Positions 1-52,309 of a stretch of DNA of 64,000 bases are shown here, one piece after another. Position 1 is the stretch's first letter, and each line of letters opens with the position of its first letter. A model generated the notes under the pieces. That model was not told the DNA's origin. It worked only from the letters and a program-made list of their open reading frames with translations, and did not search any database. Source of the DNA: Squalus acanthias (lineage: Eukaryota); assembly GCA_030390025.1 (NCBI GenBank), contig CM059452.1, positions 16,678,001 through 16,742,000 of the forward strand, in the 5' to 3' direction. A program made the translations under genes and the position numbers.

Positions 1-3000
1 CTGAACCTGACGCTACCTCACCAGCCCCTGTCCCAGACTGAACCAGACCCTCCCTCACCAGACCCTGTCCCAGACTGAACCAGACCCTCCCTCACCAGCC
101 TCTGTCCCAGACTGAACCAGACCCTCACTCACCTGTCCCTGTTCCTGAATGAACCAGACCCACCCTCATCAGTCCCTGTTCTTGACTGAAACAGACGCTC
201 GCCCACCGATCCCGGTCCCAGATTGAACCGGATCCTCCCTCACCGGTCCCGTCCCTGAGACAGAAAAATACAGTCCCTCAGCCGCCCATCTACCAGACTG
301 AAACAGACCACTTTCTCACAAGCCGCTGTCACAGACTGAACCAGACCCTCCGTCATCAGTTCCTGTCCCAGACTGAACTAGACCCTCCGTCACCAAACCC
401 TGTCCCAGACTGAACCAGACCCTCCCTCACAATCACTGTACCACGCTGAAAAAGACGCCCATCACCAGTCACTGTCCCAGACTGAACGAGCCCCAACCTC
501 ACCAGCCCCTGTTACAGACTGAACCAAACACTTCCTCACCAGCCCTTGTCCCAAACTTAACCAGACTCTCCCTCACCAGTCCCTGTTCCAGATTGAAGCA
601 GAACCCCCTCACCAGTCCCTGTCCCAGACGGACCCAGAACCACCCTCACCAGTCCCTTTTCCAGACTGAAACAGACCCTCCCTCATCAGTCACTCTCCCA
701 GACTGAACCAGACCCTCCCTCATCAGTCCGTATTCCAGACTGAAACAGACCCTCCCTCATCAGTCACTCTCCCAGACTGAACCAGACCCTCCCTCATCAG
801 TCACTCTCCCAGACTGAACCAGACCCTCCCTCATCAGTCCGTATTCCAGACTGAACCAGACCCTCACTCACCAGTCCCAGTCCCAGACTGAACCAGAACA
901 ACCCTCAACAGTCCCTGTTCCAGACAGAAGCAGATCCCCCTCACCAGTCCCTGTCCCAGACTGAACCAGAACCACCCTCACCAGTCCCTGTTCCAGACTG
1001 AAACAGACCCTCCCTCATCAGTCACTCTCCCAGACTGAACCAGACCCTCCCTCACCAGTCCCTGTTCCAGACTAAAACAGACCCTCCCTCACCAGTCCCT
1101 GTTCCAGACTGAAACAGACCCTCCCTCATCAGTCCGTATTCCAGACTGAACCAGACCCTCACTCACCAGTCACTCTCCCAAACTAACCCGGTACCTCCCT
1201 CACCAGCCTCTGTCCCAGACTGAACCAGACCCTCCCTCATCAGACCCTGTCCCAGACTGAAACAGACCCTCCCACACCAGCCCCTGTCCCAGACTGAAAC
1301 AGACCCTCCCTCACCAGTCCCTGTCCCAGACAGAAACAGACCCTGCCTCACCAGTCCCTGTTCCAAACTGAAACAGACCCTCCCTCATCAGTCCGTATAC
1401 CAGACTGAAACAGACCCTCACTCACCAGTCACTCTCCCAGACTAACCCGGTACCTCCCTCACCAATCCCAGTCCCAGACTGAACCAGACACTCCCTCATC
1501 AGTTCCTGTCCCAGACTCAAACAGAACCTCCATCACCAGCCTCTGTCCCAGACTGAAACAGACCCTCGTACACCAGCCCCTGTCCCAGACTGAACCAGAC
1601 CCTCCCTCACCAGCCTCTGTCCCAGACTGAACCAGACCCTCCCTCACCAGCCCCTGTCCCAGACGGAAACAGACCCTCCCTCACCAGCCTCTGTCCCAGA
1701 CTGAAACAGACCCTCCCTCACCAGCCTCTGTCCCAGACTGAAACAGACCCTCCCTGAGCAGTCCCTGTCCCAGACTGATCCTGGCCCTCCCTCACCAGTC
1801 CCTGTCCCAGACTGAAACAGACCCTCCCTCACCAGCCTCTGTCCCAGACTGATCCTGACCCTCCCTCACCAGTGTCTGTCCCAGACTGAAACAGACCCTC
1901 CATCACCAGCCTCTGTCCCAGACTGAAACAGACCCTCCCTCACCAGCCCCTGTCACAGACTGAAACAGACCCTCCCTCACCAGCCTCTGTCCCAGACTGA
2001 TCCTGACCCTCCCTCACCAGTGTCTGTCCCAGAATGAACCAGACCCTCCCTCATCAGTCCGTATACCAGACTGAACCAGACCCTCCCTCACCAGTCCCTG
2101 TTCCAGACTAAAACAGACCCTCCCTCACCAGTCCCTGTTCCAGACTGAAACAGACCCTCCCTCATCAGTCTGTATTCCAGACTGAAGTAGACCCTCATTC
2201 AACAGTCACTCTCCCAGACTGAACCAGACCCTCCCTCATCAGTCCGTATTCCAGACTGAACCAGACCCTCACTCACCAGTCACTCTCCCAGACTAACCCG
2301 GTACCTCCCTCACCAGTCCCAGTCCCAGACTGAACCAGACACTCCCTCATCAGTCCCTGTCCCAGACTGAAACAGACACTCACTCACCAGCCTCTGTCCC
2401 AGACTGAAACAGACCCTCCCTCACCAGCCTCTGTCCCAGACTGAACCAGACCCTCCATCACCAGCCCCTGTCCCAGACTGAAACAAACCCTCCCACACCA
2501 GCCTCTGTCCCAGACTGAACCAGACCCTCCATCATCAGTCCCTGTTCCAGACTGAAACAGACCCTCCCACACCAGCCTTTGTCCCAGACTGAAACAGACT
2601 CTCCCTCACCAGCCTCTGTCCCAGACTGAAACAGACCCTCCCACACCAGCCCATGTCCCAGACTGAAACAGACCCTCCATCACCAGCCTCTGTCCCAGCC
2701 TGAAACAGACCCTCCCACACCAGCCTCTGTCCAAGACTGAAACAGACCCTCCCTCACCAGTCACTGTCCCAGACTGAAACAGACCCTCCATCACCAGCCT
2801 CTGTCCCAGACTGAAACAGACCCTCCCTCAACAGCCTCTGTCCCAGACTGAAACAGACCCTCCCACACCAGCCTCTGTCCCAGACTGAAACAGACCCTCC
2901 CTCACCAGCCTCTGTCCCAGACTGAAACAGACCCTCACTCACCAGACTCTGTCCCAGACTGAAACAGACCCTCCCTCACCAGTCCCTGTCCCGGACTGAT

Positions 3001-6000
3001 CCTGACCCTCCCTCACCAGTCCCTGTCCCAGACTGAAACAGACCCTCCCTCACCAGTCCCTTTCCCTGACTGAAACAGACTCGCACTCACCAGCCTCGGT
3101 CCCAGACTGAAACAGACCCTCCCTCACCAGTCCCTGTCCCAGATAGAACCAGACCCTCCCTCACAGCCCCTGTCCCAGACAAAAACAGACCCTCCATCAC
3201 CAGCCTCTGTCCCAGACTGAAACAGACCCTCCCTCACCAGCCCCTGTCCCAGACTGAAACAGACCCTCCCTCACCAGCCTCTGTCCCAGACTGATCCTGA
3301 CCCTCCCTCACCAGTGTCTGTCCCAGACTGAAACAGACCCTCCATCACCAGCCTCTGTCCCAGACTGAAACAGACACTCCCTGACCAGCCCCTGTCCCAG
3401 ACTGATCCTGACCCCCCCTCAACAGTCCCTGTCCCAGACTGAAACAGACCCTCCATCACCAGCCGCTGTCCCAGAATTTTCCAGACCCTCCCTCACCAGC
3501 CCCTGTCCCAGACTGAACCAGACCCTCCCTCACCAGCTTCTGTCCCAGACTGAACCAGACCCTCCCTCACCAGCCCCTGTCCCAGACTGAAACAGACCCT
3601 CCCGCAACAGCCTCCGTCCCAGACTGAAACAGACCCTCCCTCACCAGCCTCTGTCCCAGACTGAAACAGACCCTCCCACACCAGCCTCTGTCCCAGACTG
3701 AAACAGACCCTCCATCACCAGCCTCTGTCCCAGACTGAAACAGACCCTCCCACACCAGCCCCTGTCCCAGACTGAAACAGACCCTCCATCACCAGCCTCT
3801 GTCCCAGACTGAAACAATCCCTCCCACACCAGCCTCTGTCCCAGACTGAAACAGACCCTCCCTCACCAGTCCCTGTCCCAGACTGAAACAGACCCTCCAT
3901 CACCAGCCTCTGCCACAGACTGAAACAGACCCTCCCTCACCAGCCTCTGTCCCAGACGGAAACAGACTCTACCTCACCAGTCCCTGTCCCTGACTGAAAC
4001 AGACCCTCCCACACCAGTCCCTGTCCCAGACAGAAACAGACCCTGCCTCACCAGTCCCTGTCCCAGACAGAAACAGACCCTGCCTCAGCAGTCCCTGTCC
4101 CAGACTGAAACAGACCCTCCCTCGCCAGTCCCTGACTCAGACTGAAACAGACCCTTCCTAACCAGTGTCTGTCCCAGACTGAAACAGACCCTCCCTCACC
4201 AGTGTCTGTCCCAGACTGAAACAGACCCTCCCTCACCAGTCGCTGTCCAAGACTGAACCAGACCCTCACTCACCGGTCCCTGTCCCAGACTAATCCAGAC
4301 CCTCCCTCACCAGTCTCTGTCCCAGACTGAAACAGACCCTCCCTCACCTGTCCCTGTCCCAGACAGAAACAGACCCTGCCTCACCAGTCCCTCTCCCAGA
4401 CAGAAACAGACCCTCCCTCACCAGTCCCTGTCCCAGACTGATCCTGACCCTCCTTCACCAGTCGCTGTCCCAGACTGAAACAGAACCTCCCTCACCAGTC
4501 CCTGTCCCAGACTGAAACAGACCCTCCCTCACAGCCCCTGTCCCAGACAGAAACAGACCCTCCATCACCAGCCTCTGTCCCAGACTGAAACAGACGCTCC
4601 CTCACCAGCCCCTGTCCCAGACTGAAACAGACTCTCCCTCACCAGCCTCTGTCCCAGACTGATTCTGACCCTCCCTCACCAGTATCTGTCCCAGACTGAA
4701 ACAGACCCTCCATCACCAGCCTCTGTCCCAGACTGAAACAATCCCTCCCACACCAGCCTCTGTCCCAGACTGAAACAGACCCTTCCTCACCAAACCCTGT
4801 CCCAGACTGAAACAGACCCTGCATCACCAGCCTCTGTCCCAGACTGAAACAGACCCTCCCTCACCAGCCTCTGTCCCTGACTGAAACAGACCCTCCCAAA
4901 CCAGCCTCTGTCCCAGACGGAAACAGACTCTACCTCACCAGTCCCTGTCCCTGACTGAAACAGACCCTCCCTCGCCAGTCCCTGACTCAGACTGAAACAG
5001 ACCCTCCCTCACCAGTGTCTGTCTCAGACTGAAACAGACCCTCCCTCACCAGTCGCTGTCCCAGACTGAACCAGACCCTCACTCACCGGTCCCTGTCCCA
5101 GACTAATCCAAACCCTCCCTCACCAGTCTCTGTCCCAGACTGAAACAGACCCTCCCTAACCTGTCCCTGTCCCAGACAGAAACAGACCCTCCCTCACCAG
5201 TCCCTGTCCCAGACTGATCCTGACCCTCCTTCACCAGTCGCTGTCCCAGACTGAAACAGAATCTCCCTCACCAGTCCCTGTCCCAGACTGAAACAGACCC
5301 TCCCTCACAGCCCCTGTCCCAGACAGAAACAGACCCTCCATCACCAGCCTCTGTCCCAGACTGAAACAGACCCTCCCTCACCAGCCCCTGTCCCAGACTG
5401 AAACGGACCCTCCCTCACCAGCCTCTGTCCCAGACTGATCCTGACCCTCCCTCACCAGTATCTGTCCCAGACTGAAACAGACCCTCCATCACCAGCCTCT
5501 GTCCCAGACTGAAACAGACACTCCCTAACCAGCCCCTGTCCCAGACTGATCCTGACCATTCCTCACCAGTCCCTGTCCCAGACAGAAACAGACCCTCCAT
5601 CACCAGCCCCTGTCCCAGACTGATCCAGACACTCCCTCACCAGTCCCTGTCCCAGATTGAAACAGACCCTCCCTCACCAGCCTCTGTCCCAGACTGAAAC
5701 AGACCCTCACTCACCAGCCTCTGTCCCAGACGGAAACAGACCCGCCCTCACCAGCCTCTGTCCCAGAGTGAAACAGACCCTCCCTCACCAGCCTCTGTCC
5801 CAGACTGAAACAGACCCTCACTTACCAGCCTCTGTCCCAGACTGAAACAGACCCTCCCTGACCAGTCCCTGTCCCAGACTGATCCTGACCCTCCCTCACC
5901 AGTCCCTGTCCCAGACTGAAACAGACCCTCCCTCACCAGTCCCTGTCCCTGACTGAAACAGACTCTCCCTCACCAGCCTCGGTCCCAGACTGAAACAGAC

Positions 6001-9000
6001 CCTCCCTCACCATTCCCTGTCCCAGATAGAACCAGACCCTCCCTCACAACCCCTGTCCCAGACAGAAACAGACCCTCCATCACCAGCCTCTGTCCCAGAC
6101 TGAAACAGACCCTCCCTCACCAGCCCCTGTCCCCGACTGAAACAGACCCTCCCTCACCAGCCTCTGTCCCAGACTGATCCTGACCCTCCCTCACCAGTGT
6201 CTGTCCCAGACTGAAACAGACCCTCCATCACCAGCCTCTGTCCCAGACTGAAACAGACCCTCCCTCACCAGCCCCTGTCACAGACTGAAACAGACCCTCC
6301 CTCACCAGCCTCTGTCCCAGACTGATCCTGACCCTCCCTCACCAGTGTCTGTCCCAGAATGAACCAGACCCTCCCTCATCAGTCCGTATTCCAGACTGAA
6401 CCAGACCCTCCCTCACCAGTCCCTGTTCCAGACTAAAACAGACCCTCCCTCACCAGTCCCTGTTCCAGACTGAAACAGACCCTCCCTAATCAGCCTGTAT
6501 TCCAGACTGAACCAGACCCTCATTCACCAGTCACTCTCCCAGACTGAACCAGACCCTCCCTCATCAGTCCGTATTCCAGACTGAACCAGACCCTCACTCA
6601 CCAGTCACTCTCCCAGACTAACCCGGTACCTCCCTCACCAGTCCCAGTCCCAGACTGAACCAGACACTCCCTCATCAGTCCCTGTCCCAGACTGAAACAG
6701 ACACTCACTCACCAGCCTCTGTCCCAGACTGAAACAGACCCTCCCTCACCAGCCTCTGTCCCAGACTGAACCAGACCCTCCATCACCAGCCCCTGTCCCA
6801 GACTGAAACAAACCCTCCCACACCAGCCTCTGTCCCAGACTGAACCAGACCCTCCATCATCAGTCCCTGTTCCAGACTGAAACAGACCCTCCCACACCAG
6901 CCTTTGTCCCAGACTGAAACAGACTCTCCCTCACCAGCCTCTGTCCCAGACTGAAACAGACCCTCCCACACCAGCCCATGTCCCAGACTGAAACAGACCC
7001 TCCATCACCAGCCTCTGTCCCAGCCTGAAACAGACCCTCCCACACCAGCCTCTGTCCAAGACTGAAACAGACCCTCCCTCACCAGTCACTGTCCCAGACT
7101 GAAACAGACCCTCCATCACCAGCCTCTGTCCCAGACTGAAACAGACCCTCCCTCACCAGCCTCTGTCCCAGACTGAAACAGACCCTCCCTCAACAGCCTC
7201 TGTCCCAGACTGAAACAGACCCTCCCACACCAGCCTCTGTCCCAGACTGAAACAGACCCTCCCTCACCAGCCTCTGTCCCAGACTGAAACAGACCCTCAC
7301 TCACCAGACTCTGTCCCAGACTGAAACAGACCCTCCCTCACCAGTCCCTGTCCCGGACTGATCCTGACCCTCCCTCACCAGTCCCTGTCCCAGACTGAAA
7401 CAGACCCTCCCTCACCAGTCCCTTTCCCTGACTGAAACAGACTCGCACTCACCAGCCTCGGTCCCAGACTGAAACAGACCCTCCCTCACCAGTCCCTGTC
7501 CCAGATAGAACCAGACCCTCCCTCACAGCCCCTGTCCCAGACAGAAACAGACCCTCCATCACCAGCCTCTGTCCCAGACGGAAACAGACCCTCCCTCACC
7601 AGCCCCTGTCCCAGACTGAAACAGACCCTCCCTCACCAGCCTCTGTCCCAGACTGATCCTGACCCTCCCTCACCAGTGTCTGTCCCAGACTGAAACAGAC
7701 CCTCCATCACCAGCCTCTGTCCCAGACTGAAACAGACACTCCCTGACCAGCCCCTGTCCCAGACTGAAACAGACCCTCCATCACCAGCCTCTGCCACAGA
7801 CAGAAACAGACCCTGCCTCACCAGTCCCTGTCCCAGACAGAAACAGACCCTGCCTCAGCAGTCCCTGTCCCAGACTGAAACAGACCCTCCCTCGCCAGTC
7901 CCTGACTCAGACTGAAACAGACCCTTCCTAACCAGTGTCTGTCCCAGACTGAAACAGACCCTCCCTCACCAGTGTCTGTCCCAGACTGAAACAGACCCTC
8001 CCTCACCAGTCGCTGTCCAAGACTGAACCAGACCCTCACTCACCGGTCCCTGTCCCAGACTAATCCAGACCCTCCCTCACCAGTCTCTGTCCCAGACTGA
8101 AACAGACCCTCCCTCACCTGTCCCTGTCCCAGACAGAAACAGACCCTGCCTCACCAGTCCCTCTCCCAGACAGAAACAGACCCTCCCTCACCAGTCCCTG
8201 TCCCAGACTGATCCTGACCCTCCTTCACCAGTCGCTGTCCCAGACTGAAACAGAACCTCCCTCACCAGTCCCTGTCCCAGACTGAAACAGACCCTCCCTC
8301 ACAGCCCCTGTCCCAGACAGAAACAGACCCTCCATCACCAGCCTCTGTCCCAGACTGAAACAGACGCTCCCTCACCAGCCCCTGTCCCAGACTGAAACAG
8401 ACTCTCCCTCACCAGCCTCTGTCCCAGACTGATTCTGACCCTCCCTCACCAGTATCTGTCCCAGACTGAAACAGACCCTCCATCACCAGCCTCTGTCCCA
8501 GACTGAAACAATCCCTCCCACACCAGCCTCTGTCCCAGACTGAAACAGACCCTCCCTCACCAAACCCTGTCCCAGACTGAAACAGACCCTGCATCACCAG
8601 CCTCTGTCCCAGACTGAAACAGACCCTCCCTCACCAGCCTCTGTCCCTGACTGAAACAGACCCTCCCAAACCAGCCTCTGTCCCAGACGGAAACAGACTC
8701 TACCTCACCAGTCCCTGTCCCTGACTGAAACAGACCCTCCCTCGCCAGTCCCTGACTCAGACTGAAACAGACCCTCCCTCACCAGTGTCTGTCCCAGACT
8801 GAAACAGACCCTCCCTCACCAGTCGCTGTCCCAGACTGAACCAGACCCTCACTCACCGGTCCCTGTCCCAGACTAATCCAAACCCTCCCTCACCAGTCTC
8901 TGTCCCAGACTGAAACAGACCCTCCCTAACCTGTCCCTGTCCCAGACAGAAACAGACCCTCCCTCACCAGTCCCTGTCCCAGACTGATCCTGACCCTCCT

Positions 9001-12000
9001 TCACCAGTCGCTGTCCCAGACTGAAACAGAATCTCCCTCACCAGTCCCTGTCCCAGACTGAAACAGACCCTCCCTCACAGCCCCTGTCCCAGACAGAAAC
9101 AGACCCTCCATCACCAGCCTCTGTCCCAGACTGAAACAGACCCTCCCTCACCAGCCCCTGTCCCAGACTGAAACGGACCCTCCCTCACCAGCCTCTGTCC
9201 CAGACTGATCCTGACCCTCCCTCACCAGTATCTGTCCCAGACTGAAACAGACCCTCCATCACCAGCCTCTGTCCCAGACTGAAACAGACACTCCCTGACC
9301 AGCCCCTGTCCCAGACTGATCCTGACCATTCCTCACCAGTCCCTGTCCCAGACAGAAACAGACCCTCCATCACCAGCCCCTGTCCCAGACTGATCCAGAC
9401 CCTCCCTCACCAGTCCCTGTCCCAGATTGAAACAGACCCTCCCTCACCAGCCTCTGTCCCAGACTGAAACAGACCCTCACTCACCAGCCTCTGTCCCAGA
9501 CGGAAACAGACCCGCCCTCACCAGCCTCTGTCCCAGAGTGAAACAGACCCTCCCTCACCAGCCTCTGTCCCAGACTGAAACAGACCCTCACTTACCAGCC
9601 TCTGTCCCAGACTGAAACAGACCCTCCCTGACCAGTCCCTGTCCCAGACTGATCCTGACCCTCCCTCACCAGTCCCTGTCCCAGACTGAAACAGACCCTC
9701 CCTCACCAGTCCCTGTCCCTGACTGAAACAGACTCTCCCTCACCAGCCTCGGTCCCAGACTGAAACAGACCCTCCCTCACCATTCCCTGTCCCAGATAGA
9801 ACCAGACCCTCCCTCACAACCCCTGTCCCAGACAGAAACAGACCCTCCATCACCAGCCTCTGTCCCAGACTGAAACAGACCCTCCCTCACCAGCCCCTGT
9901 CCCAGACTGAAACAGACCCTCCCTCACCAGCCTCTGTCCCAGACTGATCCTGACCCTCCCTCACCAGTGTCTGTCCCAGACTGAAACAGACCCTCCATCA
10001 CCAGCCTCTGTCCCAGACTGAAACAGACCCTCCCTCACCAGCCCCTGTCACAGACTGAAACAGACCCTCCCTCACCAGCCTCTGTCCCAGACTGATCCTG
10101 ACCCTCCCTCACCAGTGTCTGTCCCAGAATGAACCAGACCCTCCCTCATCAGTCCGTATTCCAGACTGAACCAGACCCTCCCTCACCAGTCCCTGTTCCA
10201 GACTAAAACAGACCCTCCCTCACCAGTCCCTGTTCCAGACTGAAACAGACCCTCCCTAATCAGCCTGTATTCCAGACTGAACCAGACCCTCATTCACCAG
10301 TCACTCTCCCAGACTGAACCAGACCCTCCCTCATCAGTCCGTATTCCAGACTGAACCAGACCCTCACTCACCAGTCACTCTCCCAGACTAACCCGGTACC
10401 TCCCTCACCAGTCCCAGTCCCAGACTGAACCAGACACTCCCTCATCAGTCCCTGTCCCAGACTGAAACAGACCCTCCCTCACCAGCCTCTGTCCCAGACT
10501 GATCCTGACCCTCCCTCACCAGCCACTGTCACAGACTGAAACAGACCCTCCCTCACCAGTCCCTGTCCCAGACTGAAACAGATCCTCCCACACCAGCCCC
10601 TGTCCCAGACTGATCCTGACCCTCCCTCACCAGTGTCTGTCCCAGACTGAAACAGACCCTCCCTCACCAGTCCCTGTCCCAGACTGAAACAGACCCTCCC
10701 TCACCAGTCCCTGTCCCAGACTGAAGCAGACCCTCCCTCACCAGTCCCTGTCCCAGACTGAAGCAGACCCTCCCTCACCAGTCCCTGTCCCAGACTGAAA
10801 CAGACCCTCCCTCACCTGTCCCTGTCCCAGACTGAAACAGACCCTCCCTCACCAGTCCCTGTCCCAGACTGAAGCAGACCCTCCCTCACCAGTCCCTGTC
10901 CCAGACTGAAGCAGACCCTCCCTCACCAGTCCCTGTCCCAGACTGAAACAGACCCTCCCTCACCAGTCCCTGTCCCAGACTGAAGCAAACCCTCCCTCAC
11001 CAGTCCCTGTCCCAGACTGAAGCAGACCCTCCCTCACCAGTCCCTGTCCCAGACTGATCCTGACCCTCCCTCATTAGTCCCTGTCCCAGACTGAAGCAGA
11101 CCCTCCCTCACCAGTCCCTGTCCCAGACTGATCCTGACCCTCCCTCACCAGCCTCTGTCCCAGACTGAAACAGACCCTCACTCACCAGTCCCTGTCCCAG
11201 ACTGAACCAGACCCTCCCTCACCAGCCTCTGTCCCAGACTGAAACAGACCCTCCCTCACCAGCCTCGGTCCCATACTGAAAAAGACCCTCCCACATCAGC
11301 CTCTGTCCCAGACTAAACCAGACATAGCCTCATCAGCCCCTGTCCCAGACTGAACCAGACCCTCCCTCACCAGCCCCTGTCCCAGACTGAACCAGACCCT
11401 CCCTTATCAGCCCTGTCGCAGACTTTCCCAGATCCTCCCTCATCTGCCCCTGTCCCAGACTGAAACAGACCCTCCCTCATCAGCCCCTGTCCCAGACTGA
11501 ACCAGACCCTCCCTCATCAGCCCTTGTTCCAGACTGAACCAGATCCACCCTCACCAGTCCCTGACCAAGACTGAAACAGACCCTCGCTCAAAATCTTTTA
11601 ACCCAGACTGAACCAGACCCTCCCTCACCAGCCTCTGTCCCATACTTTCCCAGACCCGCCATCACCAGCCCCTGTCCCAAACTGGACCAGTCCCTCCCTC
11701 ACCTGTCCCTGTCCCAGACTGAAGCAGACCCTCCCTCACCAGTCCCTCTCCCAGACTGATCTAGATCATCACTCACCGGCCACTGTCCCAGATAGAACCA
11801 GACACTCACTCACCAGCCCCTGTCCCAGACTGAACCAGACCCTCCCTCACCAGTCCCTGTCCCAGACTGAAGCAGACCCTCCCTCACCAGTCCCTGTGCC
11901 AGACTGAGCCAGACCCTCACTCACCGGCCACGATCCCAGATAGAACCAGACACTCCCTCACCAATCCCTGTCCCAAAGTGAACCAGACCCTCCCTCACCA

Positions 12001-33524: not shown

Positions 33525-33567
33525 ATGAATATTTTCTGGGTTTCGGTCCTTTTAGCCTGGTTACCAA
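33525..33567 (+). CDS. IgNAR: IgNAR leader exon, MNIFWVSVLLAWLP + 1 nt
   Basis: Typical IgNAR signal peptide. Donor GTAAGT at 33568, phase 1. Confidence 0.95.
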
Positions 33568-33707: not shown

Positions 33708-33980
33708 ATGCCTTCGGTGCAAGAGTAGACCAAACACCAAGAACGGCAACGAAAGAGACAGGAGAATCCCTGACCATCAACTGCGTCCTAACTGATACCA
33801 GCTGTGTTTGTACAGCACATCCTGGTTCCGGAAAAATCCGGGTACAACAGACTGGGAACGCATTTCGATTGGCGGCCGATATGTCGAATCAGTCAACAAG
33901 GGAGCAAAGTCATTTTCTCTGCGAATCAAGGACCTAACAGTTGCAGACAGTGCCACGTATTATTGCAAAGCTCAAAGCTA
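33708..33980 (+). pseudogene. IgNAR: VNAR exon (type II-like, Cys29 in CDR1) with a -1 frameshift in CDR1
   Basis: Acceptor TTCAG ends at 33707. Reads (N)[32 protein letters not shown], then a 2-nt codon (GT), then [57 protein letters not shown]. The unshifted frame stops at TAA 33935-33937. Confidence 0.93.
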
Positions 33981-34019
33981 CACAGCAGTGGAGGAGGCGG
34001 TCCCTGCAATACACAAACT
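33981..34019 (+). other. V recombination signal sequence, 23-bp spacer
   Basis: CACAGCA (33981-33987), 23 nt, ACACAAACT (34011-34019). Confidence 0.93.
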
Positions 34020-34208: not shown

Positions 34209-34291
34209 CCTTTTTGTACTGGTCTCTGTGACTGTGTGGATACATGGATGTACCACAGTGATGAATCTTGGATTCCCGTAATACATAAACT
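34209..34291 (+). other. IgNAR: D1 segment TGGATACATGGATGTAC (34237-34253) with 5' 12-RSS and 3' 22-RSS
   Basis: CCTTTTTGT-12-GACTGTG | D | CACAGTG-22-ACATAAACT. Confidence 0.92.
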
Positions 34292-34617: not shown

Positions 34618-34686
34618 AGTTCTTGTGCTGGTGTGAAATGATGTGTATACTGTGGTGACACAGTGACTCGGGCCATAGCACAAACC
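34618..34686 (+). other. IgNAR: D2 segment TATACTGTGGTGA (34646-34658) with 12-RSS on both sides
   Basis: AGTTCTTGT-12-TGATGTG | D | CACAGTG-12-GCACAAACC. Confidence 0.88.
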
Positions 34687-34997: not shown

Positions 34998-35036
34998 CCT
35001 TTTTGAACTGGGCTGACTGGGAGCTGACTGACTGTG
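34998..35036 (-). other. J recombination signal sequence, 23-bp spacer
   Basis: On the + strand: CCTTTTTGA (34998-35006), 23 nt, GACTGTG (35030-35036). Confidence 0.9.
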
Positions 35037-35086
35037 TGGCTATGACTGGTATGACGGAGCTGGCACCGTGCTGACTGTGAACTCTG
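35037..35086 (+). CDS. IgNAR: IgNAR J segment GYDWYDGAGTVLTVNS + 1 nt
   Basis: VNAR FR4 motif YDGAGTVLTVN. Donor GTAAGT at 35087. Confidence 0.96.
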
Positions 35087-35844
35087 GTAAGTGACCTCTC
35101 TTGCTGCTTTATTGATAAGATTTTGATGCTAGAATTTGAAAAGAATCAGTGTTGTCGTTAAAATGGCCTGAAGCGCAAAATGCAATAGCCGAAGCTCTTT
35201 GTGAAGACTCGGTTAGGTTCACTGTCAATTTATTTGGCATAAACTTAAAAATGGTTTTCAAAAGAGATTTTGCCCGTCAATAAAATAAACCTATATTTAA
35301 ATTTATAACTTCCGTCCAAACAAACCCGTATTTAAATATAAAACTTACCTGTCATGCATTATTTAAGATGCTTATTTGAATAGATTGTGATAGTTTAAAT
35401 AGTTTAAACGGAACCAGCCCAGTAAAGTTACTCCTTACTGAGGTGTCCCAGTACATCTTTGATATACAGTATATCTGATTCGAAGAATTAAAACAATTAT
35501 TGGAACAGGAACATTTGCTGCAAACAAGGAATGAATACAACGTGTAATTTTATAAAATGTTCCCTTGGAAAATCACCCCTCTATATAAAACAATGACTAC
35601 TAAATTAATATCGGCACAGATCCTGCAAATATGTTGTCACTTCGAATCGTGTCATTTGTTGGTCGGGATTAATGGCGCACACTTCAGTGACCGAGCTGTA
35701 ACTCTGAGGAAGCTCTTTACATGAAAGCCAGTCCCCGAGACATCCGTATTTGAGCTTATCGACGCGTTCTGTGCGTAACATTAAGCGAGCAGCAGAGAAC
35801 TTTGAAACTACAGTGGGTTTCAGTGTAATAAGTGGGCTCTGTTT

Positions 35845-43526: not shown

Positions 43527-43847
43527 CACCACAAAATAATCCACCAATCATCAGTCTCCTCTACTCTGCAACTGACGAACTGAGAGAAAAGGGTTTTGTG
43601 CAACTGGTTTGCCTCATCAGCGAATACCAGCCAGAAAGCATTGGAGTGAGCTGGGAGAAGAACGGTAACGCCATACAGTCTGGCTTTACCACCTCATCCG
43701 CAGCTAAAAATTCGAACGGAGACTTTAGCTCCACCAGCCTCCTTCAAGTCCCCCTGCAGGAATGGGCCAGCGGTTCAATGTACAGCTGCCAAGTGTCCCA
43801 CTCTGCAACCAGCAGTAACCAACGGAAAGAAATTAGATCAACATCAG
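43527..43847 (+). CDS. IgNAR: IgNAR C1 exon
   Basis: TTTTAG|CA...TCA G|GTGAG, 321 nt. Reads APQNNPPIISLLYSATDELREKGFVQLVCLISEYQPESIGVSW...YSCQVSHSATSSNQRKEIRSTS. Confidence 0.96.
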
Positions 43848-44639
43848 GTGAGCAAATGTAACCAATTCATAAGCTTGCACTGGTGAAACTTTCTCACTTT
43901 CTTTATCAGTATTGGATTAATTGGGATGTTATTGGATAATCTAACGATAAGGATTCAACTTCCCTGAACTGGTCCTGAGTGAGATCCGTGCCAGTTTAGG
44001 GGCAGTGAAATGCTACCTTCAAAATATTGGGATTTGTTTCAGCGGCAATGGCCGAGGTAACTGAAGGTGATCTTTCAAAGAGCCGGCACAGGCACGATGG
44101 GCCGAATGGCCTCCTTCTGTGCTGTATCATTCTCTCATTCTATGTTTCAGCGGCAATGGCTGAAGTCGCTGAAAGCGCTCGCTGAATGGCGGATGTTGCA
44201 AAAAGCAGTTATAAGAAGTCTTGAAACATACACGAATATTGTGCTGCGGTCACCGAACACATCGAGCATAATATCGATGATATTACAAACAATTTATAAC
44301 GGATTGTGATAGACCCTATTGAATTCATTCACCAAATCAATCCGGGCGAAACAGAACAGAAAGACAGAGCGTAGCGTAGAGTTTACAAAAGAGGATCAAA
44401 CATTAACAGTGCGGTTCTATTACTAGTTACACTTGTGAGAATTTATTGTATTTGCTGCTGGATATCGGCACAAAAATGAAACGGGTGAGANNNNNNNNNN
44501 NNNNNNNNNNNNNNNNNNNNNNNNNNNNNNNNNNNNNNNNNNNNNNNNNNNNNNNNNNNNNNNNNNNNNNNNNNNNNNNNNNNNNNNNNNNNNNNNNNNN
44601 NNNNNNNNNNNNNNNNNNNNNNNNNNNNNNNNNNNNNNN

Positions 44640-44990
44640 GACAGATGGAGATAGTCAGCGAAACAAAGACAGAGCGAAAGAGACAAAGAGAGTGAGATAG
44701 AGAGTGACAGGGAGACAGATGGAGAGAGAGGGAGACAGACAGAGAGAGAGAGACAGAGAGAGAGACAGAGGGAGAGAGAGAGACAGAGTGAGACAGAGAG
44801 TGAGAGAGAGACAGACAGACAGCCAGAGACAGAGAGAGTGAGAGACAGACAGAGAGAGAGAGAGAGACAAAGGGACAGAGAGAGAGAGTCAGCGAAACAA
44901 AGACAGAGCGAGTGAGAGAGAGTGAGATAGTGAGTGAGAGAGAGACAGGTTGAGAGAGAGGGAGACAGAGAGAGACAGAGAGGGAGAGTT
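44640..44990 (+). repeat. Imperfect (GA)n/(GACA)n microsatellite between two N gaps
   Basis: Visible purine-rich tract. Gaps at 44491-44639 and 45021-45182. Confidence 0.9.
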
Positions 44991-45367
44991 TGATGAGTTT
45001 TACAAAGTTATGATGCGAGANNNNNNNNNNNNNNNNNNNNNNNNNNNNNNNNNNNNNNNNNNNNNNNNNNNNNNNNNNNNNNNNNNNNNNNNNNNNNNNN
45101 NNNNNNNNNNNNNNNNNNNNNNNNNNNNNNNNNNNNNNNNNNNNNNNNNNNNNNNNNNNNNNNNNNNNNNNNNNNNNNNNNNTGTCACTAGATTAAACTG
45201 ACAGATACGATCACAAAACCCTGCAACAATAAGCTGATCTTTCTTTTAAAGATATTCTTTAAAAAGACCTGGGTAAGGACCAGGGATATATGACTAAGTA
45301 GAGAGCACTTTCAGGGATCTCCCAGACACGATGGACTGAATTCCTTCTACCCTGTGGAATTAATTCA

Positions 45368-45772
45368 TTCTCTCTCTCGCTGCCTCCCTCTCTATATCTA
45401 TCTTTGTCTCTGTCTCTCTGTCCCCCTCTATCACACTTCCTATCTCTCAATGTCTGCCTCGGACTTACTATCTCTGTCTCTGTCTCTGTCTCTCTCTCCT
45501 CCTCGATGTATCTCTGTCTCTCTCGCTGTCTCTATGTCTCTCTTTCTCTCTCTCTGCCTCTCACCCTTTCTCTGTCTGACTTTCCTTTTGTCTCTCTCGC
45601 TCTCTTTATATATCCGTCTCTGAATGTTCTTCTCCCTCTGCCTCTCTCTCTCTGCCTGTCTGTCTCTCTGTCTTCTCTCTATCTCTCTGTTTCTCCCTAT
45701 CTCTCTGTCTCTCTGTTTTTCTCTTTCTATGTGTTTCTCTCCCTCTCTTTATGTCTCTCTGTCGCTCTCTCA
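45368..45772 (+). repeat. Imperfect (CT)n/(CTGT)n microsatellite
   Basis: Visible pyrimidine-rich tract. Confidence 0.9.
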
Positions 45773-45981
45773 GTTTTGATGAGTTTTACAAAGTTATGAT
45801 GCGACTCAACATAGGTGGAAAAACCAAAATAATGTTTTAAATTCAATAATAATTAGCAGAGACATGATCACATCTTGCCATGCTCTCGATTATCACTGAA
45901 ATTAAAATCCTTGTTAAAGGTCCGAAGTCGTCAACACTGAAACATTGCCCCGATTCTGAACCTCTGGTTTCTCACTGACAG

Positions 45982-46284
45982 GGCTCGCAGTTTTCCTCAG
46001 AGATCCTTCCGTGGAAGAAATTTGGATCAATAAAACGGCCACCCTGTTGTGTGAAGTGGTCTCTACAGTTCCCACAGAGGTTGCGATCTCTTGGACAGTG
46101 GATGGAAAGATGAGGACTGAAGGAGTCCTGACCGAACCAGCTACAAAGTATGGAGACCAGTACCTGACCATCGGCCGCTTGACCAGCAGCGTGGAAGAGT
46201 GGGAGAGCGGGGTTGAATATTCGTGTTCGGCACAGGAGGGTCAATCTTCGACTGCGGTATCACAACGAACAGGAAAGGCAAAAG
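45982..46284 (+). CDS. IgNAR: IgNAR C2 exon
   Basis: GACAG|GG...AAA G|GTGGGT, 303 nt. Reads GLAVFLRDPSVEEIWINKTATLLCEV...EEWESGVEYSCSAQEG...TGKAK. Confidence 0.96.
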
Positions 46285-46359
46285 GTGGGTAACAATCTAC
46301 AGCCTTGTTTCCGAGTTACAGTGGATGGGAGACTAACACTGGGTGAACTTCTGTTACAG

Positions 46360-46676
46360 TCGAGCCAATGAAGCCAAAGCTCCGTCTCCTGCCTCCATCG
46401 CCAGAGGAGATTCAAAGTACGAGCGCCGCTACTCTCACCTGTTTGATAAGAGGATTCTACCCGGACAACATCACCGTTTCCTGGGAGAAGGATGGAGCTG
46501 CTTTGAGCGCGAACGTCACCAGTTTCCCCACTGCGCTTGAACAGGACCAGACCTTCAGCACAAGGAGCCTCTCACTTTACCTTCAGCGGAATGGAAGAGA
46601 GGATCAACATACACCTGTGGCGCCTCACATCCACCTTCACAATCCACCGTGAAGGGGGCCATCAGCAGCCCGAAAG
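46360..46676 (+). pseudogene. IgNAR: IgNAR C3 exon with a -1 frameshift
   Basis: 317 nt, not a multiple of 3. Reads VEPMKPKLRLLPPSPEEIQ...TFSTRS, then CTCTC where two Leu codons are expected. The shifted frame gives LTLPSAEWKRGSTYTCGASHPPSQSTVKGAISSPK. The unshifted frame stops at TGA 46650-46652. Confidence 0.92.
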
Positions 46677-47519
46677 GTAGGGACAGTACCTCAAAATACA
46701 TTCACACAATCAGCGTTTTGTAGTTACATCTAAAGCCGACATTGAACAATGCAGGCCCTAGTGGTCAGATCACTCCAGGTTACAGGTGTAACAAACTCTA
46801 GGGACATCAATTAATGCGCCCTTAACTCACAGGCGGCGAGCAGACGTTAAAGTGATCAGCGCGCAATATGTGCGCCGCCACAAGCTATGTGAGGACCAAT
46901 GGTAAGAAGAGCACATGATCAGGATTTGCTAACTTCACTGCATGTTACCCTGGGGAACGTGGGTTGTCTTTAAACAGCAATATGCAGTGGCTAAAGACAC
47001 CGAGCGTCCCACACTATGTGGGGATTAGACTTTGAATGGTGTTTGCTTCACTCTGCACTTCCTGATTTAAGGCTAGCACAACACTGAGTGGTTGCAGGCA
47101 GTGAATTAAAAGACAAAAGCAGCCAGTTATCAGGGGGCGCAACCAATTGATGTGAGTAACTTTGTACATTTGAAGTATTCAAATCTCTGCACCGCCAGCG
47201 TTAGATGTCACAGGAGGAGATAAATAATGTCTTCATGTTCTGAACCCAATTATTTGACCTTCAGTTTTTGATGATTACAATCTCCGCTTCTGCGATTACT
47301 TTTCCATCTCCATTTATTTTTATTCAATCAAATCAAAATGTGTGCACAATAATCATCCCAGCACCTCCGTGCGAGGGACGGAGAGGCATTCAAACTTCCC
47401 TGGATCTTAGGTTGGAACACCGTTTTCTGCTGAGTTCGTTGATCTCACCTGGTGGCGTCCCGGGCCTTATAATCGGTCTCAGTGTCGCATGATTCGTTAA
47501 ATAGCAAAGCCCCTGGTTC

Positions 47520-48750
47520 CATAGATACATAGATACATAGATACATAGAAGATAGGAGCAGGAGTAGGCCATCCGGCCCTTTGAGCCTGCTCCGCCATTT
47601 AATGAGATCATGGCTGATCCTCCAATTCAGTATCCCGTCCCCGCCTTCTCTCCGTAACCCTTAACCCCTTTTGCCTGTAGAAATATATCTAATTCCCTCT
47701 TAAATATATTTAATGAGCTGGCGTACACTGCCCTCTGTGGCAATGAGTTCCACAGGTTCACCACCCTCTGAGTGAAGAAATTCCCCCTCATTTCTGTCCT
47801 AAATGGTTTAGCCCTTATCCTTAAATTATGTCCTCTAGTTCTGTTCTCACCCGCCAAGGGAAACATTCCTTCTGCATCTAGTCTGTCTAGACCTGTCAGA
47901 ATTTTATACACTTCTATGAGGTCCCCTCTCAATCTTCTAAACTCCAGTGTGTACATCCCTAAACTACATAGTCTCTCCTGATAGGTCAATCCCGCCATTC
48001 CTGGTATCAGCCTGGTGAATCGCCGCTGCACCCCCTCCATGGCAAGAACATCTTTCCTCAGATGAGGCGACCAAAACTGTACACAGTACTCGAGGTGTGG
48101 TCTCACCAGTGCCCTGTACAGCTGCAGCAATGTATCCCTGTTCCTGTATTCCAACCCTTTTGCTATGAAGGCCAGCATACCGTTTGCCTTCTTGACCGCC
48201 TGTTGCACCTGCATGCTCGCCTTCAGTGACTGGTGTACAAGAACACCCAGGTCTCTCTGTACTTCCCCCTCTCCCAATTTATTGCCATTTAAATAATAAT
48301 TTGCCCTCCCGTTCCTGCACCCAAGGTGGATAACTTCGCACTTGTCCACATTATAGTGCATCTGCCATTTATCCGCCCAATCACCCAGTCTGTTCAAATC
48401 GCTCTGGAGCTTCCTGGTCTCCTCCTCTGAGCCCACCCCCCCTCCTAGTTTAGTGTCGTCTGCAAATTTGGAAATGCTGCATCCGACTCCCTGATCCAGG
48501 TCATTAATGTAAATTGTGAACAGCTGGGGACCCAGGACAGATCCCTATGGTACCCCACTTGTTACTGCCTGCCATTCAGAAAATGAACCGTTTATTCCAA
48601 CTCTCTGTTTTCTATCTGACAGCCAGTTCTCTATCCACGTCAATACTTTCCCCTTTATCCCATGAGCTTCAATTTTCCATGCTAATCTTTTATGTGGGAC
48701 CTTGTCGAAGGCCTTTTGGAAGTCCAGGTACACCACATCTACGTTCCGCT
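47520..48750 (-). mobile_element. Young CR1 LINE fragment in the C3-C4 intron
   Basis: 269-aa ORF 47627-48436 plus upstream DVVYLDFQKAFDKVPH...SGVP* in the same frame. (ATAGATAC)n tail 47521-47548. Confidence 0.95.
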
Positions 48751-50858
48751 CCTGATCTATGGTAACTGCGCCTGGGATCAATCTGGTGACGACAAGATAG
48801 GACTTGTCTGCGATGCCCTCGCGGTACAACAGCCTGCTGATACTCATTGTGAACGATGACTCACGCCGCATATTCCATTGGCTGAGGTACCAGAGGGCGA
48901 CTGACAGATCTCATACAGCAGTGAGGAAAGGAGAGGATACATTAGGGCCAATACTGCTGTTAGGCGTAGTCACAGACACTTAATACTCGAGATCCTCCGA
49001 TTGCTAAGCAGCTGTTCACTGTAATTCGCGAGCCATGTGCACTAAGAAGCCCCTGTGTTCCGTCGCCGGACTTTGCTGAGTGAACTGATCTCAACTAGTG
49101 GCTTTTTGGAAGTTGCAGTGGCCTAGGCACATCCGGGTCACTGAGGAGACACCCGTTATTTTCTCTTCCTCCTATCTGAGGAGGGCTGGTGGAAGTCGGC
49201 GTGTTGGCACCTGTGCTGAGCGCACGACTGGACGGGGCTCTTCCTGCGGATCCACTAAGAATGGCCGCTTGAGAGAGATACTCAAGGCGACGTACCTCAG
49301 TGGGGCCTGTACCGGATAACAGTAAAACCAGGCATGTAATGAGCACCTTTAAGCGCCTTGTGCCGCTTCACAGAGTTGTAAGGAAAGCGACAGGAAATGA
49401 ATGTAAAGTTGCCCATTGTCTTTATTTTAGAAGACTGCGGTGAAGATTTCAGTGTTGAAATCAGCCCATTTCCTACACGTGAATATTCTGCTGTTGATTG
49501 CTTCAAATTAGCTCCGTGTTGAAACTCAGTTTACTGTTTAAACTTGTGAAGATGATTGATTTTATTACACTCAGTCATCTGACATTCTCATTAATTCTCA
49601 CCCTTCTAACATTTTGATTTACTGCCAAAGGATGGTAATCTTGGGTAATGAAGATATCGCCAAACCCCTTCAAAAGGAGTGATCTTGTAACATACAGTGT
49701 GAAATATGTCCCACTGTTTTATGAAGGAGTGGTAACTCAACGCATTTCAATCAGGGATCCTAGTAGAAAAGTACATGTTCATAATGAGAGTCTGGGAGGG
49801 GAGAAAATGGAAGTGATTATAATCAGTCCGGCAACATTTTCTACAACACTCCCCTACGGAGCATTGGCATCATTGGGAGAAATGGACCAATTTTACTGTA
49901 AGATTAGGAAACAAAGTTACAATGTTGGGCTTGTGCAATTGACACGTCACTTTGGTTGACTCTGGGGGTGTTGGGAATTTCAGAGCTGACGCCCTGGGGA
50001 ATATAATGAAGGCGGCTGCTATCATTTTAAGAGTAATACATTGAGCTTTTAGTCAGTACTTTAAAACTGAAGGCATGTTTTCCAATTTCTGGTAGTAAAT
50101 CGCTTTCAGTTTTCAAGGTAAGGATATCAGAGAAGACCTTACCACTGTCACTAATGTCAATATTGAGCACTTCCGATCAGGTATCTCATGGTAAAGCTAT
50201 AGACTGTCTCACTTTACACTCTTCAAACAATGGTGTCTTGAACCTCAACCTTCACAAGAGCGCTCCTTCCTAGCCCTGAGTGGCAGTTCCTATATTATTT
50301 CTAAACACATTCCACTCTCTAAGTGAAACAGCGAAATCGGTGTCAAATGATGCAGAACATCTGCAGATTGATGCTGATGCTGAGGGCACGTTTCCGTTCA
50401 TTGGTCAGACCTGGACAAGCTCATTTCAGACCCAACCTTTAGGACTGGAATACAGAGGACTTTAAGTCACTTTAGATGAGCTGTATTGGAACCCGCCAGA
50501 TACAGACCACAGGCGCAGCGTTTGGCCTCCAGCATCAGTCAGTCTGATGGGTGAAGATTTGCAACACGGGAGCGGGGACTATTAGCCCCCATTAAATCCC
50601 AGGCAGCGCAATGCTCGAGCTGTGGAATAAATGATCGGAAATATTATCGAGGACATCATCCAAAGAAGCCAGAGGGACGAAATCAACGAGAGCAGAAGGG
50701 TGGTGTACCATCTTATTAGCTAAGCAAAAATAACCAGAGAAAAGTCATAATTTACTAAAGTAAGTGGAATTATTTAACATCTCTGTGTGTGTGTTACATT
50801 TGTTGGTACCCGTGGTTTCAACATGACAGTTTGAAATAACCACTCCCTCTTTTTCCAG

Positions 50859-51179
50859 GTGATTGTCACGAGGCAGACATTTCTGTCAAGATACTGAACC
50901 CTCCCTTTGAAGAGATCTGGACCCAACGGACAGCGACCATTGTTTGTGAAGTTGTTTACAGCGATTTAGAGAACGTCAGCGTGTCCTGGCAAGTGGATGG
51001 GAGTCGGAGAACGGAAGGAGTCGAGACTCGGACTCCTGAGTGGAGTGGAAGTAAATCCGCCATCGTTAGCAAATTGAAAGTCACCAGGGCAGAGTGGGAG
51101 AGTGGGGTTGAATATCTCTGCTTCGTAGAAGACAGTGCATTGCCAACACCAGTGAAAATCTCCACCAGAAAAGTAAAGG
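50859..51179 (+). CDS. IgNAR: IgNAR C4 exon
   Basis: TTCCAG|GT...AAG G|GTAAGC, 321 nt. Reads GDCHEADISVKILNPPFEEIWTQRTATIVCEVVYSDLENVSVSW...EWESGVEYLCFVEDSALPTPVKISTRKVK. Confidence 0.96.
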
Positions 51180-51599
51180 GTAAGCACAGATAATACTCGT
51201 TCAGAGACTGATTCGGTGACCAATGGTCGGAACGAATCATCCGGTGTCTACATTAAATGCTCATATAGTCAATGAAATATAGTCTGGGATCACCTGCCTT
51301 TCACCACACGGGTAAAGACTAGCATGAAAAATATAAACGGTTTGTAATTGTTGCGTCCCAACAGTGTCAGTGATTTTTAAACATGTGATTGTCTCCAACT
51401 CTTTGCAATCTAACATCAGACCACAATAAAAAAAACAACTTAAGAAGACACCCCTGACCACGCAGAGAAATGTGTAAACTCTCACAGATAGGAGACAAGT
51501 TCAAATGCCCAAGTGTGTACTATTATTAACAGAGGGGATTGGGAAATGAAGATCGGACAAGAGAGAGACTCAGTTTAACAAATATTCTTCTCTTTGCAG

Positions 51600-51982
51600 T
51601 TGGTGAAATGTATCCACCGAAAGTCTACGTCCTGCCTCCATCGGCGGACGAGATTGACACTGAGAATACGGCTACCCTGGTGTGTCTAGCCACCGGATTT
51701 TACCCTGCCGAGATTTACATCGCTTGGATGGCCAATGACACCCTTTTGGATTCAGCTTACCCGAGCCAACCGGACACCGAGAAGACAAACGGTTCCAGCT
51801 CCATTGGCAGCAGGCTGAGACTGACCGCGGCGGAGTGGAACAGCGGCACCACTTACTCCTGTTTAGTGGGACACCCGTCCCTCAAAATGAATTTAATCAG
51901 AAGTATAAATAAATCTCACGGTAAACCTACTTTAGTGAATATTTCACTTGTTCTAACCGACAGTTTTAAATCGTGCGCATAA
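51600..51982 (+). CDS. IgNAR: IgNAR C5 exon plus secretory tailpiece (internal donor after 51920 for the membrane form)
   Basis: TTGCAG|TT. Reads VGEMYPPKVYVLPPS...YSCLVGHPSLKMNLIRSINKSH G|GTAAAC...KPTLVNISLVLTDSFKSCA*. Confidence 0.96.
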
Positions 51983-52309
51983 CCCCCCGTGGTTGAGTAG
52001 CTGATTCCTATCGAAGTGTTACCGCTGTTCTGTTCATTACTGTTTGAGCATCTGAATCAGCGAATCTCCCATTTATCCAACCTCACTGTCACCCTCCAGA
52101 TCAGAGAGCAATTCTTGAGATATTTTGCTAATATATGAAACTATATCAGTTAATGAGGGATAAATATGGTTAGAATCAGAAAACCATGAATAACCTTAGT
52201 ACCATTTAAAAGAAGTTGCAACATTGTTTTAGATCCCTTGAAGGGTTCAGTGACGTTATTGGATAAATAGGAAATGGCGCTTTAGTCTGTATGTGGCTCC
52301 GCTAATTAC

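What the first reader, a model, noticed from the sequence alone, without database searches (positions are those of the whole stretch)
34998..35045. J 23-RSS looks like a D1-type 12-RSS expanded by an 11-bp duplication
Seen: the J signal is CCTTTTTGA-ACTGGGCTGACTGGGAGCTGACT-GACTGTG-TGGCTA. The D1 5' signal is CCTTTTTGT-ACTGGTCTCTGT-GACTGTG-TGGATA. They share the non-consensus heptamer, 8/9 of the nonamer, the spacer start ACTGG and the coding start TGGnTA. GCTGACTG occurs twice in the J signal (35012-35019 and 35023-35030), exactly 11 nt apart. Collapsing the repeat leaves ACTGGGCTGACT, a 12-nt spacer matching the D1 spacer at 8/12. Inference: a trace of 12-to-23 spacer conversion by slippage, and of shared D/J ancestry. 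The reverse deletion would permit direct V-J or D1-J joining.
Basis: partly seen in the sequence, partly recalled or inferred. Interest (0 to 1): 0.7.

Follow-up and report, generated by a model that had tools for sequence, protein, structure and literature searches.

The report
Shark IgNAR J recombination signal
This is the cut-and-join signal in front of the J piece of a shark single-chain antibody (IgNAR) gene; its long spacer matches the one in a related shark receptor gene, so it was likely inherited rather than made by doubling a short spacer, though it likely swapped short patches of sequence with a neighbouring short signal.

Summary
The letters are as described. The site is the J 23-RSS of a shark IgNAR cluster (V23, 12-D1-22, 12-D2-12, 23-J). 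The NAR-TCR J signal in the same genome is an ungapped 23-mer, 17/23 identical, without the repeat (16 of 16 signals). At all 4 positions where the first 12 spacer bases differ from D1, they match NAR-TCR J. IgW and IgM J signals also have long spacers. A toy likelihood puts a duplication in the IgNAR line at about 0.001 against inheritance. An older duplication is not excluded (0.3-0.8; 6-9 if IgW is ignored). The repeat looks secondary: point changes or a short length-neutral recopy inside an existing 23-mer, only 6 nt in the most divergent paralog. The D1/J likeness is real: rank 1 of 1770 signal pairs on nonamer plus heptamer, through non-consensus letters that the outgroups lack. It is best read as patch exchange between the two signals (inferred). 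No collapsed J was found. The scan's notes held no earlier report of this.

The parts
34998..35036 (-). J 23-RSS: nonamer 34998-35006 (3 mismatches to consensus), spacer 35007-35029, heptamer 35030-35036 (1 mismatch)
35012..35019 (+). first copy of the 8-nt repeat (spacer positions 6-13); 7 of 8 letters shared with the NAR-TCR J spacer
35023..35030 (+). second copy (spacer 17-23 plus first heptamer base); 4 of 8 letters differ in NAR-TCR J, 2 of 8 in paralog L004
35037..35086 (+). IgNAR J coding segment (YDWYDGAGTVLTVNS), splice donor at 35087
34209..34236 (-). D1 5' 12-RSS, sharing the CC nonamer end and the G heptamer base with J
34237..34253 (+). D1 coding segment
34254..34291 (+). D1 3' RSS, 22-nt spacer
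34618..34645 (-). D2 5' 12-RSS, heptamer with 3 mismatches; spacer 11/12 identical to IgW D2
34646..34658 (+). D2 coding segment
34659..34686 (+). D2 3' 12-RSS, the partner that the 12/23 rule predicts for the J signal
33981..34019 (+). V 23-RSS
33708..33980 (+). IgNAR V exon with a 1-nt frameshift near 33800-33812
33525..33567 (+). leader exon (read from the sequence)
43530..52000 (+). IgNAR constant-domain exons, approximate span; 4 found by a C..W..C scan

Best explanation
This is the J recombination signal of a shark IgNAR cluster, with a 23-nt spacer likely inherited from the ancestor it shares with the NAR-TCR J signal, and RAG is predicted to pair it with the D2 3' 12-signal. The spacer has not changed class in the IgNAR line (inferred from outgroups). 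Later, in IgNAR only, the J and D1 signals likely exchanged short patches at the nonamer and at the heptamer/coding border, by gene conversion or by way of germline D-J joined clusters. The 11-nt-offset repeat is likely secondary: an old TGACTG core plus a few IgNAR-specific changes (two of them shared with D1), by point change or one short length-neutral recopy. Shown: anatomy, outgroup homology, paralog variation, rank of the D1/J likeness. Inferred: direction of change, exchange mechanism, RAG activity.
For: NAR-TCR J: 16 of 24 loci examined carry a J signal; all 16 have 23-nt spacers, none has the repeat, and the commonest is 17/23 identical ungapped. At 4 of 4 positions where J spacer 1-12 differs from D1 it equals NAR-TCR J. 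Spacer 14-17, which breaks the repeat, is shared with IgW J. The same 12-D-22/23, 12-D-12, 23-J order and similar spacing occur in IgM and IgW clusters. IgW D1 and D2 5' spacers match IgNAR's at 8/12 and 11/12. Duplication Bayes factors are 0.001, 0.4-0.8 and 0.3-0.4. Heptamer G is derived (ancestral probability 0.01) and spacer C7 probably so (0.23). The D1-J pair ranks 1 of 1770 on nonamer+heptamer; a CC nonamer end occurs in only these 2 of 60 signals; IgM D1-D2 ranks 5, a parallel within a cluster. Contigs of two other organisms cover the J signal without an indel.
Against: With IgW left out, the model favours an ancient duplication by 6-9 (2-28). IgW homology is weak: p 0.03 to IgNAR, 0.17 to NAR-TCR, from a single copy in a cluster with a broken V. 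Intergenic DNA is saturated (matching segments z -1.3 to 3.3, non-matching up to 4.6), so orthology rests on order, spacing and the signals themselves. IgM J is not detectably similar (8/23, p 0.25). Exchange between homologies of about 15 nt is unusual (own knowledge) and is inferred from only 3-4 shared derived letters. L004 J lacks the G heptamer. The likelihood models use guessed branch lengths and rates.
Confidence: 0.62

Rival explanations
1. Inherited 23-RSS in which both the repeat and the D1 likeness are coincidences of independent point changes in relaxed, G/T-rich signals; no exchange and no recopy.
For: All six signals of the cluster have 2-3 nonamer mismatches. The spacer is low in complexity, dinucleotide-shuffle p 0.018. 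23/28 identity is reached by 5 of 1225 natural 12-RSS pairs and 6 of 500 best-collapse pairs.
Against: Weighted for rare letters, D1-J ranks 1-3 of 1770 in 6 of 7 frames (34 in the seventh). A recopy on the IgNAR branch has mean Bayes factor 67 over 19 lags.
Confidence: 0.25
2. An ancient 11-nt duplication turned a D1-type 12-RSS into the J 23-RSS before IgNAR and NAR-TCR split; IgNAR kept the trace and NAR-TCR lost it.
For: Bayes factor 6-9 when IgW is treated as unrelated in both models. The offset is exactly 11 and the best unit is 9/11. D1/J likeness is real.
Against: Bayes factor 0.4-0.8 once IgW homology is allowed. It needs nearly all change on the NAR-TCR branch, including reversions to consensus at the nonamer end and heptamer. 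NAR-TCR keeps 3 of 8 pairs and IgW 2 of 8. IgM and IgW J already have long spacers in the same layout.
Confidence: 0.08
3. In the IgNAR line the J signal was replaced by D1's 12-RSS and re-expanded to 23 by slippage.
For: D1/J share the derived CC and G; germline D-J joins that put a D 12-RSS before J exist in this genome (L005, L006, L114, L031).
Against: Spacer 6-18 matches NAR-TCR J at 11 of 13 positions, including 4 of 4 sites where J differs from D1. Bayes factor about 0.001.
Confidence: 0.02

Closest known systems
IgNAR clusters of bamboo and nurse shark (PMC8692893, passages read)
   Same: V-D-J-C minicluster with 12-, 22- and 23-bp spacer signals; pre-joined D segments in some clusters
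   Different: Two D segments here, against three in the complete bamboo shark clusters. The passages read give no signal sequences and no D1/J likeness.
NAR-TCR V-D-J cassette (PMC12227049 and PMC3457774, passages read; Criscitiello 2006 not held)
   Same: Related V domain; J spacer 17/23, D 5' spacer 9/12 and 22-nt spacer 15/22 identical; similar spacing
   Different: No repeat, consensus-like nonamer end and heptamer, one free D, followed by a supporting V-delta
Shark IgM/IgW clusters (PMC2435157, passages read)
   Same: V, two D, one J with a long-spacer signal; germline joins by RAG in germ cells (PMC2193156, passages read)
   Different: IgM J spacer not detectably similar (8/23); IgW weakly (11/23); neither has the repeat or the CC nonamer

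Membership tests
RAG 23-RSS of an IgH-type J segment | CAC-starting heptamer abutting the coding end | tested here: met
   1 mismatch, at heptamer position 7
RAG 23-RSS of an IgH-type J segment | A-rich nonamer 23 nt away | tested here: met
   3 mismatches, A tract intact
RAG 23-RSS of an IgH-type J segment | J coding with GxG motif and splice donor; 12-RSS partner upstream | tested here: met
RAG 23-RSS of an IgH-type J segment | Cleavage by RAG with a 12-RSS | not testable with these tools
   Indirect only: D2-J germline joins in 2 of 6 paralogs
IgNAR cluster | NAR-type V, J without the WGxG tryptophan, downstream NAR/IgW-type C exons | tested here: met
   family labels come from recalled hallmarks and in-genome comparison, not from a named database hit
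IgNAR cluster | Three D segments, as in bamboo shark complete clusters | tested here: not met
   Two D found in the window and its paralogs. This differs from PMC8692893 but does not exclude IgNAR.
12-to-23 spacer conversion by 11-nt tandem duplication | Tandem 11-nt unit | tested here: inconclusive
   best 9/11 in the window, 7/11 in L004
12-to-23 spacer conversion by 11-nt tandem duplication | Outgroups have a 12-nt spacer or keep the repeat | tested here: not met
   NAR-TCR 16 of 16 are 23-mers without the repeat; IgW and IgM likewise
12-to-23 spacer conversion by 11-nt tandem duplication | Collapsed spacer closer to D1 than to the orthologous J | tested here: not met
   first 12 bases: 8/12 to D1, 10/12 to NAR-TCR J
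Concerted evolution of signals within a cluster | Shared derived letters absent from outgroups | tested here: met
   CC nonamer end, G heptamer base, C7
Concerted evolution of signals within a cluster | Co-variation of D1 and J across species | not tested
   Letter-level J signals of other organisms were not seen (one search showed only part of its rows)

The most novel reading that the evidence does not exclude
The NAR J 23-RSS arose from a D1-type 12-RSS by one 11-nt slippage before IgNAR and NAR-TCR split, and IgNAR alone kept a readable trace: a fossil of a spacer-class switch that rewired V(D)J joining rules.
Probability: 0.08. Interest if true: 0.7.

Novelty: new member of a known kind. 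Interest (0 to 1): 0.3.

Why it matters
How signals switch between 12 and 23 spacers among antigen-receptor loci is an open question (own knowledge), and a dated case would be valuable. This site probably is not one. The smaller result that survives is that a 12-RSS and a 23-RSS 800 bases apart share rare derived letters, which suggests that signals within shark miniclusters evolve in concert across spacer classes. That is testable with a handful of shark genomes. It also warns that likeness between signals does not show common descent of D and J.

Tried and rejected
Intergenic alignments between IgNAR, NAR-TCR, IgW and IgM gave no usable homology. A NAR-J pattern returned only the 6 IgNAR J segments. 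A 12-spacer pattern with the shared nonamer and spacer start gave 4 hits: 3 D1 signals and 1 elsewhere (L130, not examined); no collapsed J. Only one IgW J signal could be found. Of 9 runs found, 4 were laid. Two cover the J signal without an indel, but 68 difference rows were not shown, so their letters are unknown; X6 and X9 do not cover it. The J-coding comparison at the end was out of register and was redone (IgNAR vs NAR-TCR 24/34, vs IgW 23/34, vs IgM 24/34: uninformative). The script stopped on an error after printing what is used here. Tandem Repeats Finder does not report the site. Collapse followed by re-expansion in IgNAR was rejected because spacer 14-16 would then copy 3-5 or 25-27, yet it matches IgW 3/3 and NAR-TCR 2/3. 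The TGG coding start was rejected as evidence (2 of 4 J). Criscitiello 2006 and Zhu 2011 were not held. The one supplement file of PMC8692893 held no signal sequences; its figures, not held, may show them. The scan's notes had no look-alike in other genomes.

Full report
Setting. The window holds one shark IgNAR cluster: leader, V exon with a 23-RSS, D1 (12/22), D2 (12/12), J (23), and constant exons from about 43.5 to 52 kb. Family labels rest on recalled hallmarks and on comparison within the genome. The genome holds 6 such clusters by three searches. Four keep a J signal and 2 are germline D2-J joined.

Observation. All letters and coordinates of the finding are right. The lag-11 run of 8 has p 1.7e-4 under mononucleotide shuffling and 0.018 under dinucleotide shuffling; 86 of 51,405 window 39-mers have one. 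The signal also repeats at lags 4, 9 and 15. The best 11-nt tandem unit is 9/11. In L004, the most divergent paralog (90-93% identical), the run is 6 and the heptamer starts with T. The TGG coding start is in 2 of 4 J segments.

Outgroup 1, NAR-TCR. A search with the V peptide gave 36 matches; 30 were fetched, 6 IgNAR and 24 NAR-TCR-type. A supporting V-delta follows L089. Sixteen of the 24 carry a J signal; all 16 have 23-nt spacers, 11 of them identical. This spacer is 17/23 identical to IgNAR J without gaps (shuffle p 2e-5) and keeps only 3 of the 8 repeat pairs. That divergence is like that of the other signal spacers: 15/22, 9/12, 5/12. At the 4 positions where J spacer 1-12 differs from D1, it equals NAR-TCR J in all 4.

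Outgroups 2 and 3. One IgW J signal was found (L113; IgW by its C exons; its V is broken). It is 11/23 identical to IgNAR J (p 0.03) and 10/23 to NAR-TCR J (p 0.17), and it shares spacer 14-17, the letters that break the repeat. Of 39 IgM-type J hits, 30 were fetched; 17 have a 23-nt J signal, and three more clusters have 22. The IgM spacer is not detectably similar (8/23, p 0.25). Intergenic DNA is saturated among all four types, so orthology rests on order, spacing and the signals.

Other organisms. Four of 9 runs were laid. Contigs of organisms C and D span the J signal with no indel; their substitutions there were not displayed. In organism B, 11 of 12 differences on the D1 contig are listed and none falls in the D1 signal.

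Likelihoods (toy models, guessed branch lengths). With outgroups the Bayes factor against plain inheritance is about 0.001 for a duplication on the IgNAR stem, 0.4-0.8 before the IgNAR/NAR-TCR split, and 0.3-0.4 before the IgW split. If IgW is ignored, the pre-split duplication is favoured by 6-9. A length-neutral recopy on the IgNAR branch scores about 1000 at lag 11, 118 at lag 20, 83 at lag 4, and 67 averaged over 19 lags; on the NAR stem it averages 2. Such events have a low prior (own estimate), so point change and recopy remain about equally open. Either way the second copy likely arose inside an existing 23-mer. The heptamer G is derived (0.01) and C7 probably so (0.23).

D1/J likeness. 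The comparison set was 50 12-RSS (55 distinct, 5 near-duplicates dropped) and 10 23-RSS; 22-nt spacers were left out. Raw 23/28 identity is the best of 50 but is not unique: 5 of 1225 natural pairs and 6 of 500 best-collapse pairs reach it. Weighted for rare letters, D1-J ranks 1 of 1770 on nonamer plus heptamer alone, 1-3 in 6 of 7 frames and 34 in the seventh; with the L004 J it ranks 1-10 in 6 of 7 and 307 in the seventh. The CC nonamer end occurs in only these 2 of 60 signals, and IgW D1, IgW J and NAR-TCR J lack it. The spacer start is a general feature of D signals here. IgM D1 and D2 rank 5 on the same test. The simplest account is patch exchange within the cluster (inferred). Two of the five letters that separate IgNAR from NAR-TCR inside the repeat (C7 and the heptamer G) are shared with D1. 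Germline joins, common here and attributed to RAG in germ cells (PMC2193156, passages), offer a route: a D-J joined cluster puts a D signal before J, with long downstream homology for conversion.

How it works. By the 12/23 rule (PMC2193808, passages), J pairs with D2 3', D2 5' with D1 3', and D1 5' with V. Losing 11 nt would allow V-J and D1-J and would block D2-J. None of 4 J signals is collapsed, and a pattern search found none. The equivalent shortcut exists as D2-J joins in 2 of 6 clusters.

Literature. Nine searches listed no title or abstract start on the origin of the IgNAR J spacer or on D1/J signal likeness. I read passages only, of six papers, and searched one supplement file. Key germline papers were not held. 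PMC12227049 proposes transfer of a NAR V(D)J unit between TCR-delta and Ig, which agrees with the homology found here.

Verdict. A real, ordinary IgNAR J 23-RSS. The spacer-switch story is unlikely (about 0.1 in all forms). A modest new point survives: D1 and J signals appear to have evolved in concert. Interest 0.3.

Noticed in passing
L089-L112 (e.g. L089:1669-1706) versus window 34254-34291: The NAR-TCR 'V' signal has a 22-nt spacer 15/22 identical to the IgNAR D1 3' signal, and the distances to the next D and J (403 and 383 nt) match IgNAR D1-D2-J (405 and 377). NAR-TCR V segments may be ancient germline V-D1 joins of a V-D1-D2-J cassette; IgNAR L004 has the same join. Intergenic alignment could not confirm it.
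   Followed up: partly
window 33800-33812: The V exon lacks one base relative to paralogs L003 and L004, which shifts the frame after the first cysteine: pseudogene or assembly error.
   Followed up: partly
L005, L006 (D1 5' signal); run X9 at window 34223: Two IgNAR clusters have a D1 5' spacer of 10 nt plus a germline D2-J join; organism E shows a 2-nt deletion in the same spacer.
   Followed up: partly
window 34639-34645: The D2 5' heptamer has 3 mismatches and is the same in all 6 clusters; it may be a weak signal that shapes joining order.
   Followed up: no
L090, L105 V ends versus D segments: Some NAR-TCR V ends repeat the last 11 bases of the common D segment up to the heptamer, which suggests exchange at signal borders.
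   Followed up: no
L011 D1 and D2 5' signals: IgM D1 and D2 share a non-consensus nonamer (15/16 on nonamer+heptamer, rank 5 of 1770) and the same coding start.
   Followed up: partly
G000 C29 5.9-10.3 Mb and 16.7-18.0 Mb: IgM clusters, NAR-TCR cassettes and IgNAR clusters lie on one contig, as in the antigen-receptor complex of PMC12227049.
   Followed up: no
L022, L029: Two IgM J segments have lost their signal to what looks like the same inserted repeat directly upstream.
   Followed up: no
window 1-12000: Strongly C-skewed, 58% GC stretch, probably a satellite.
   Followed up: no
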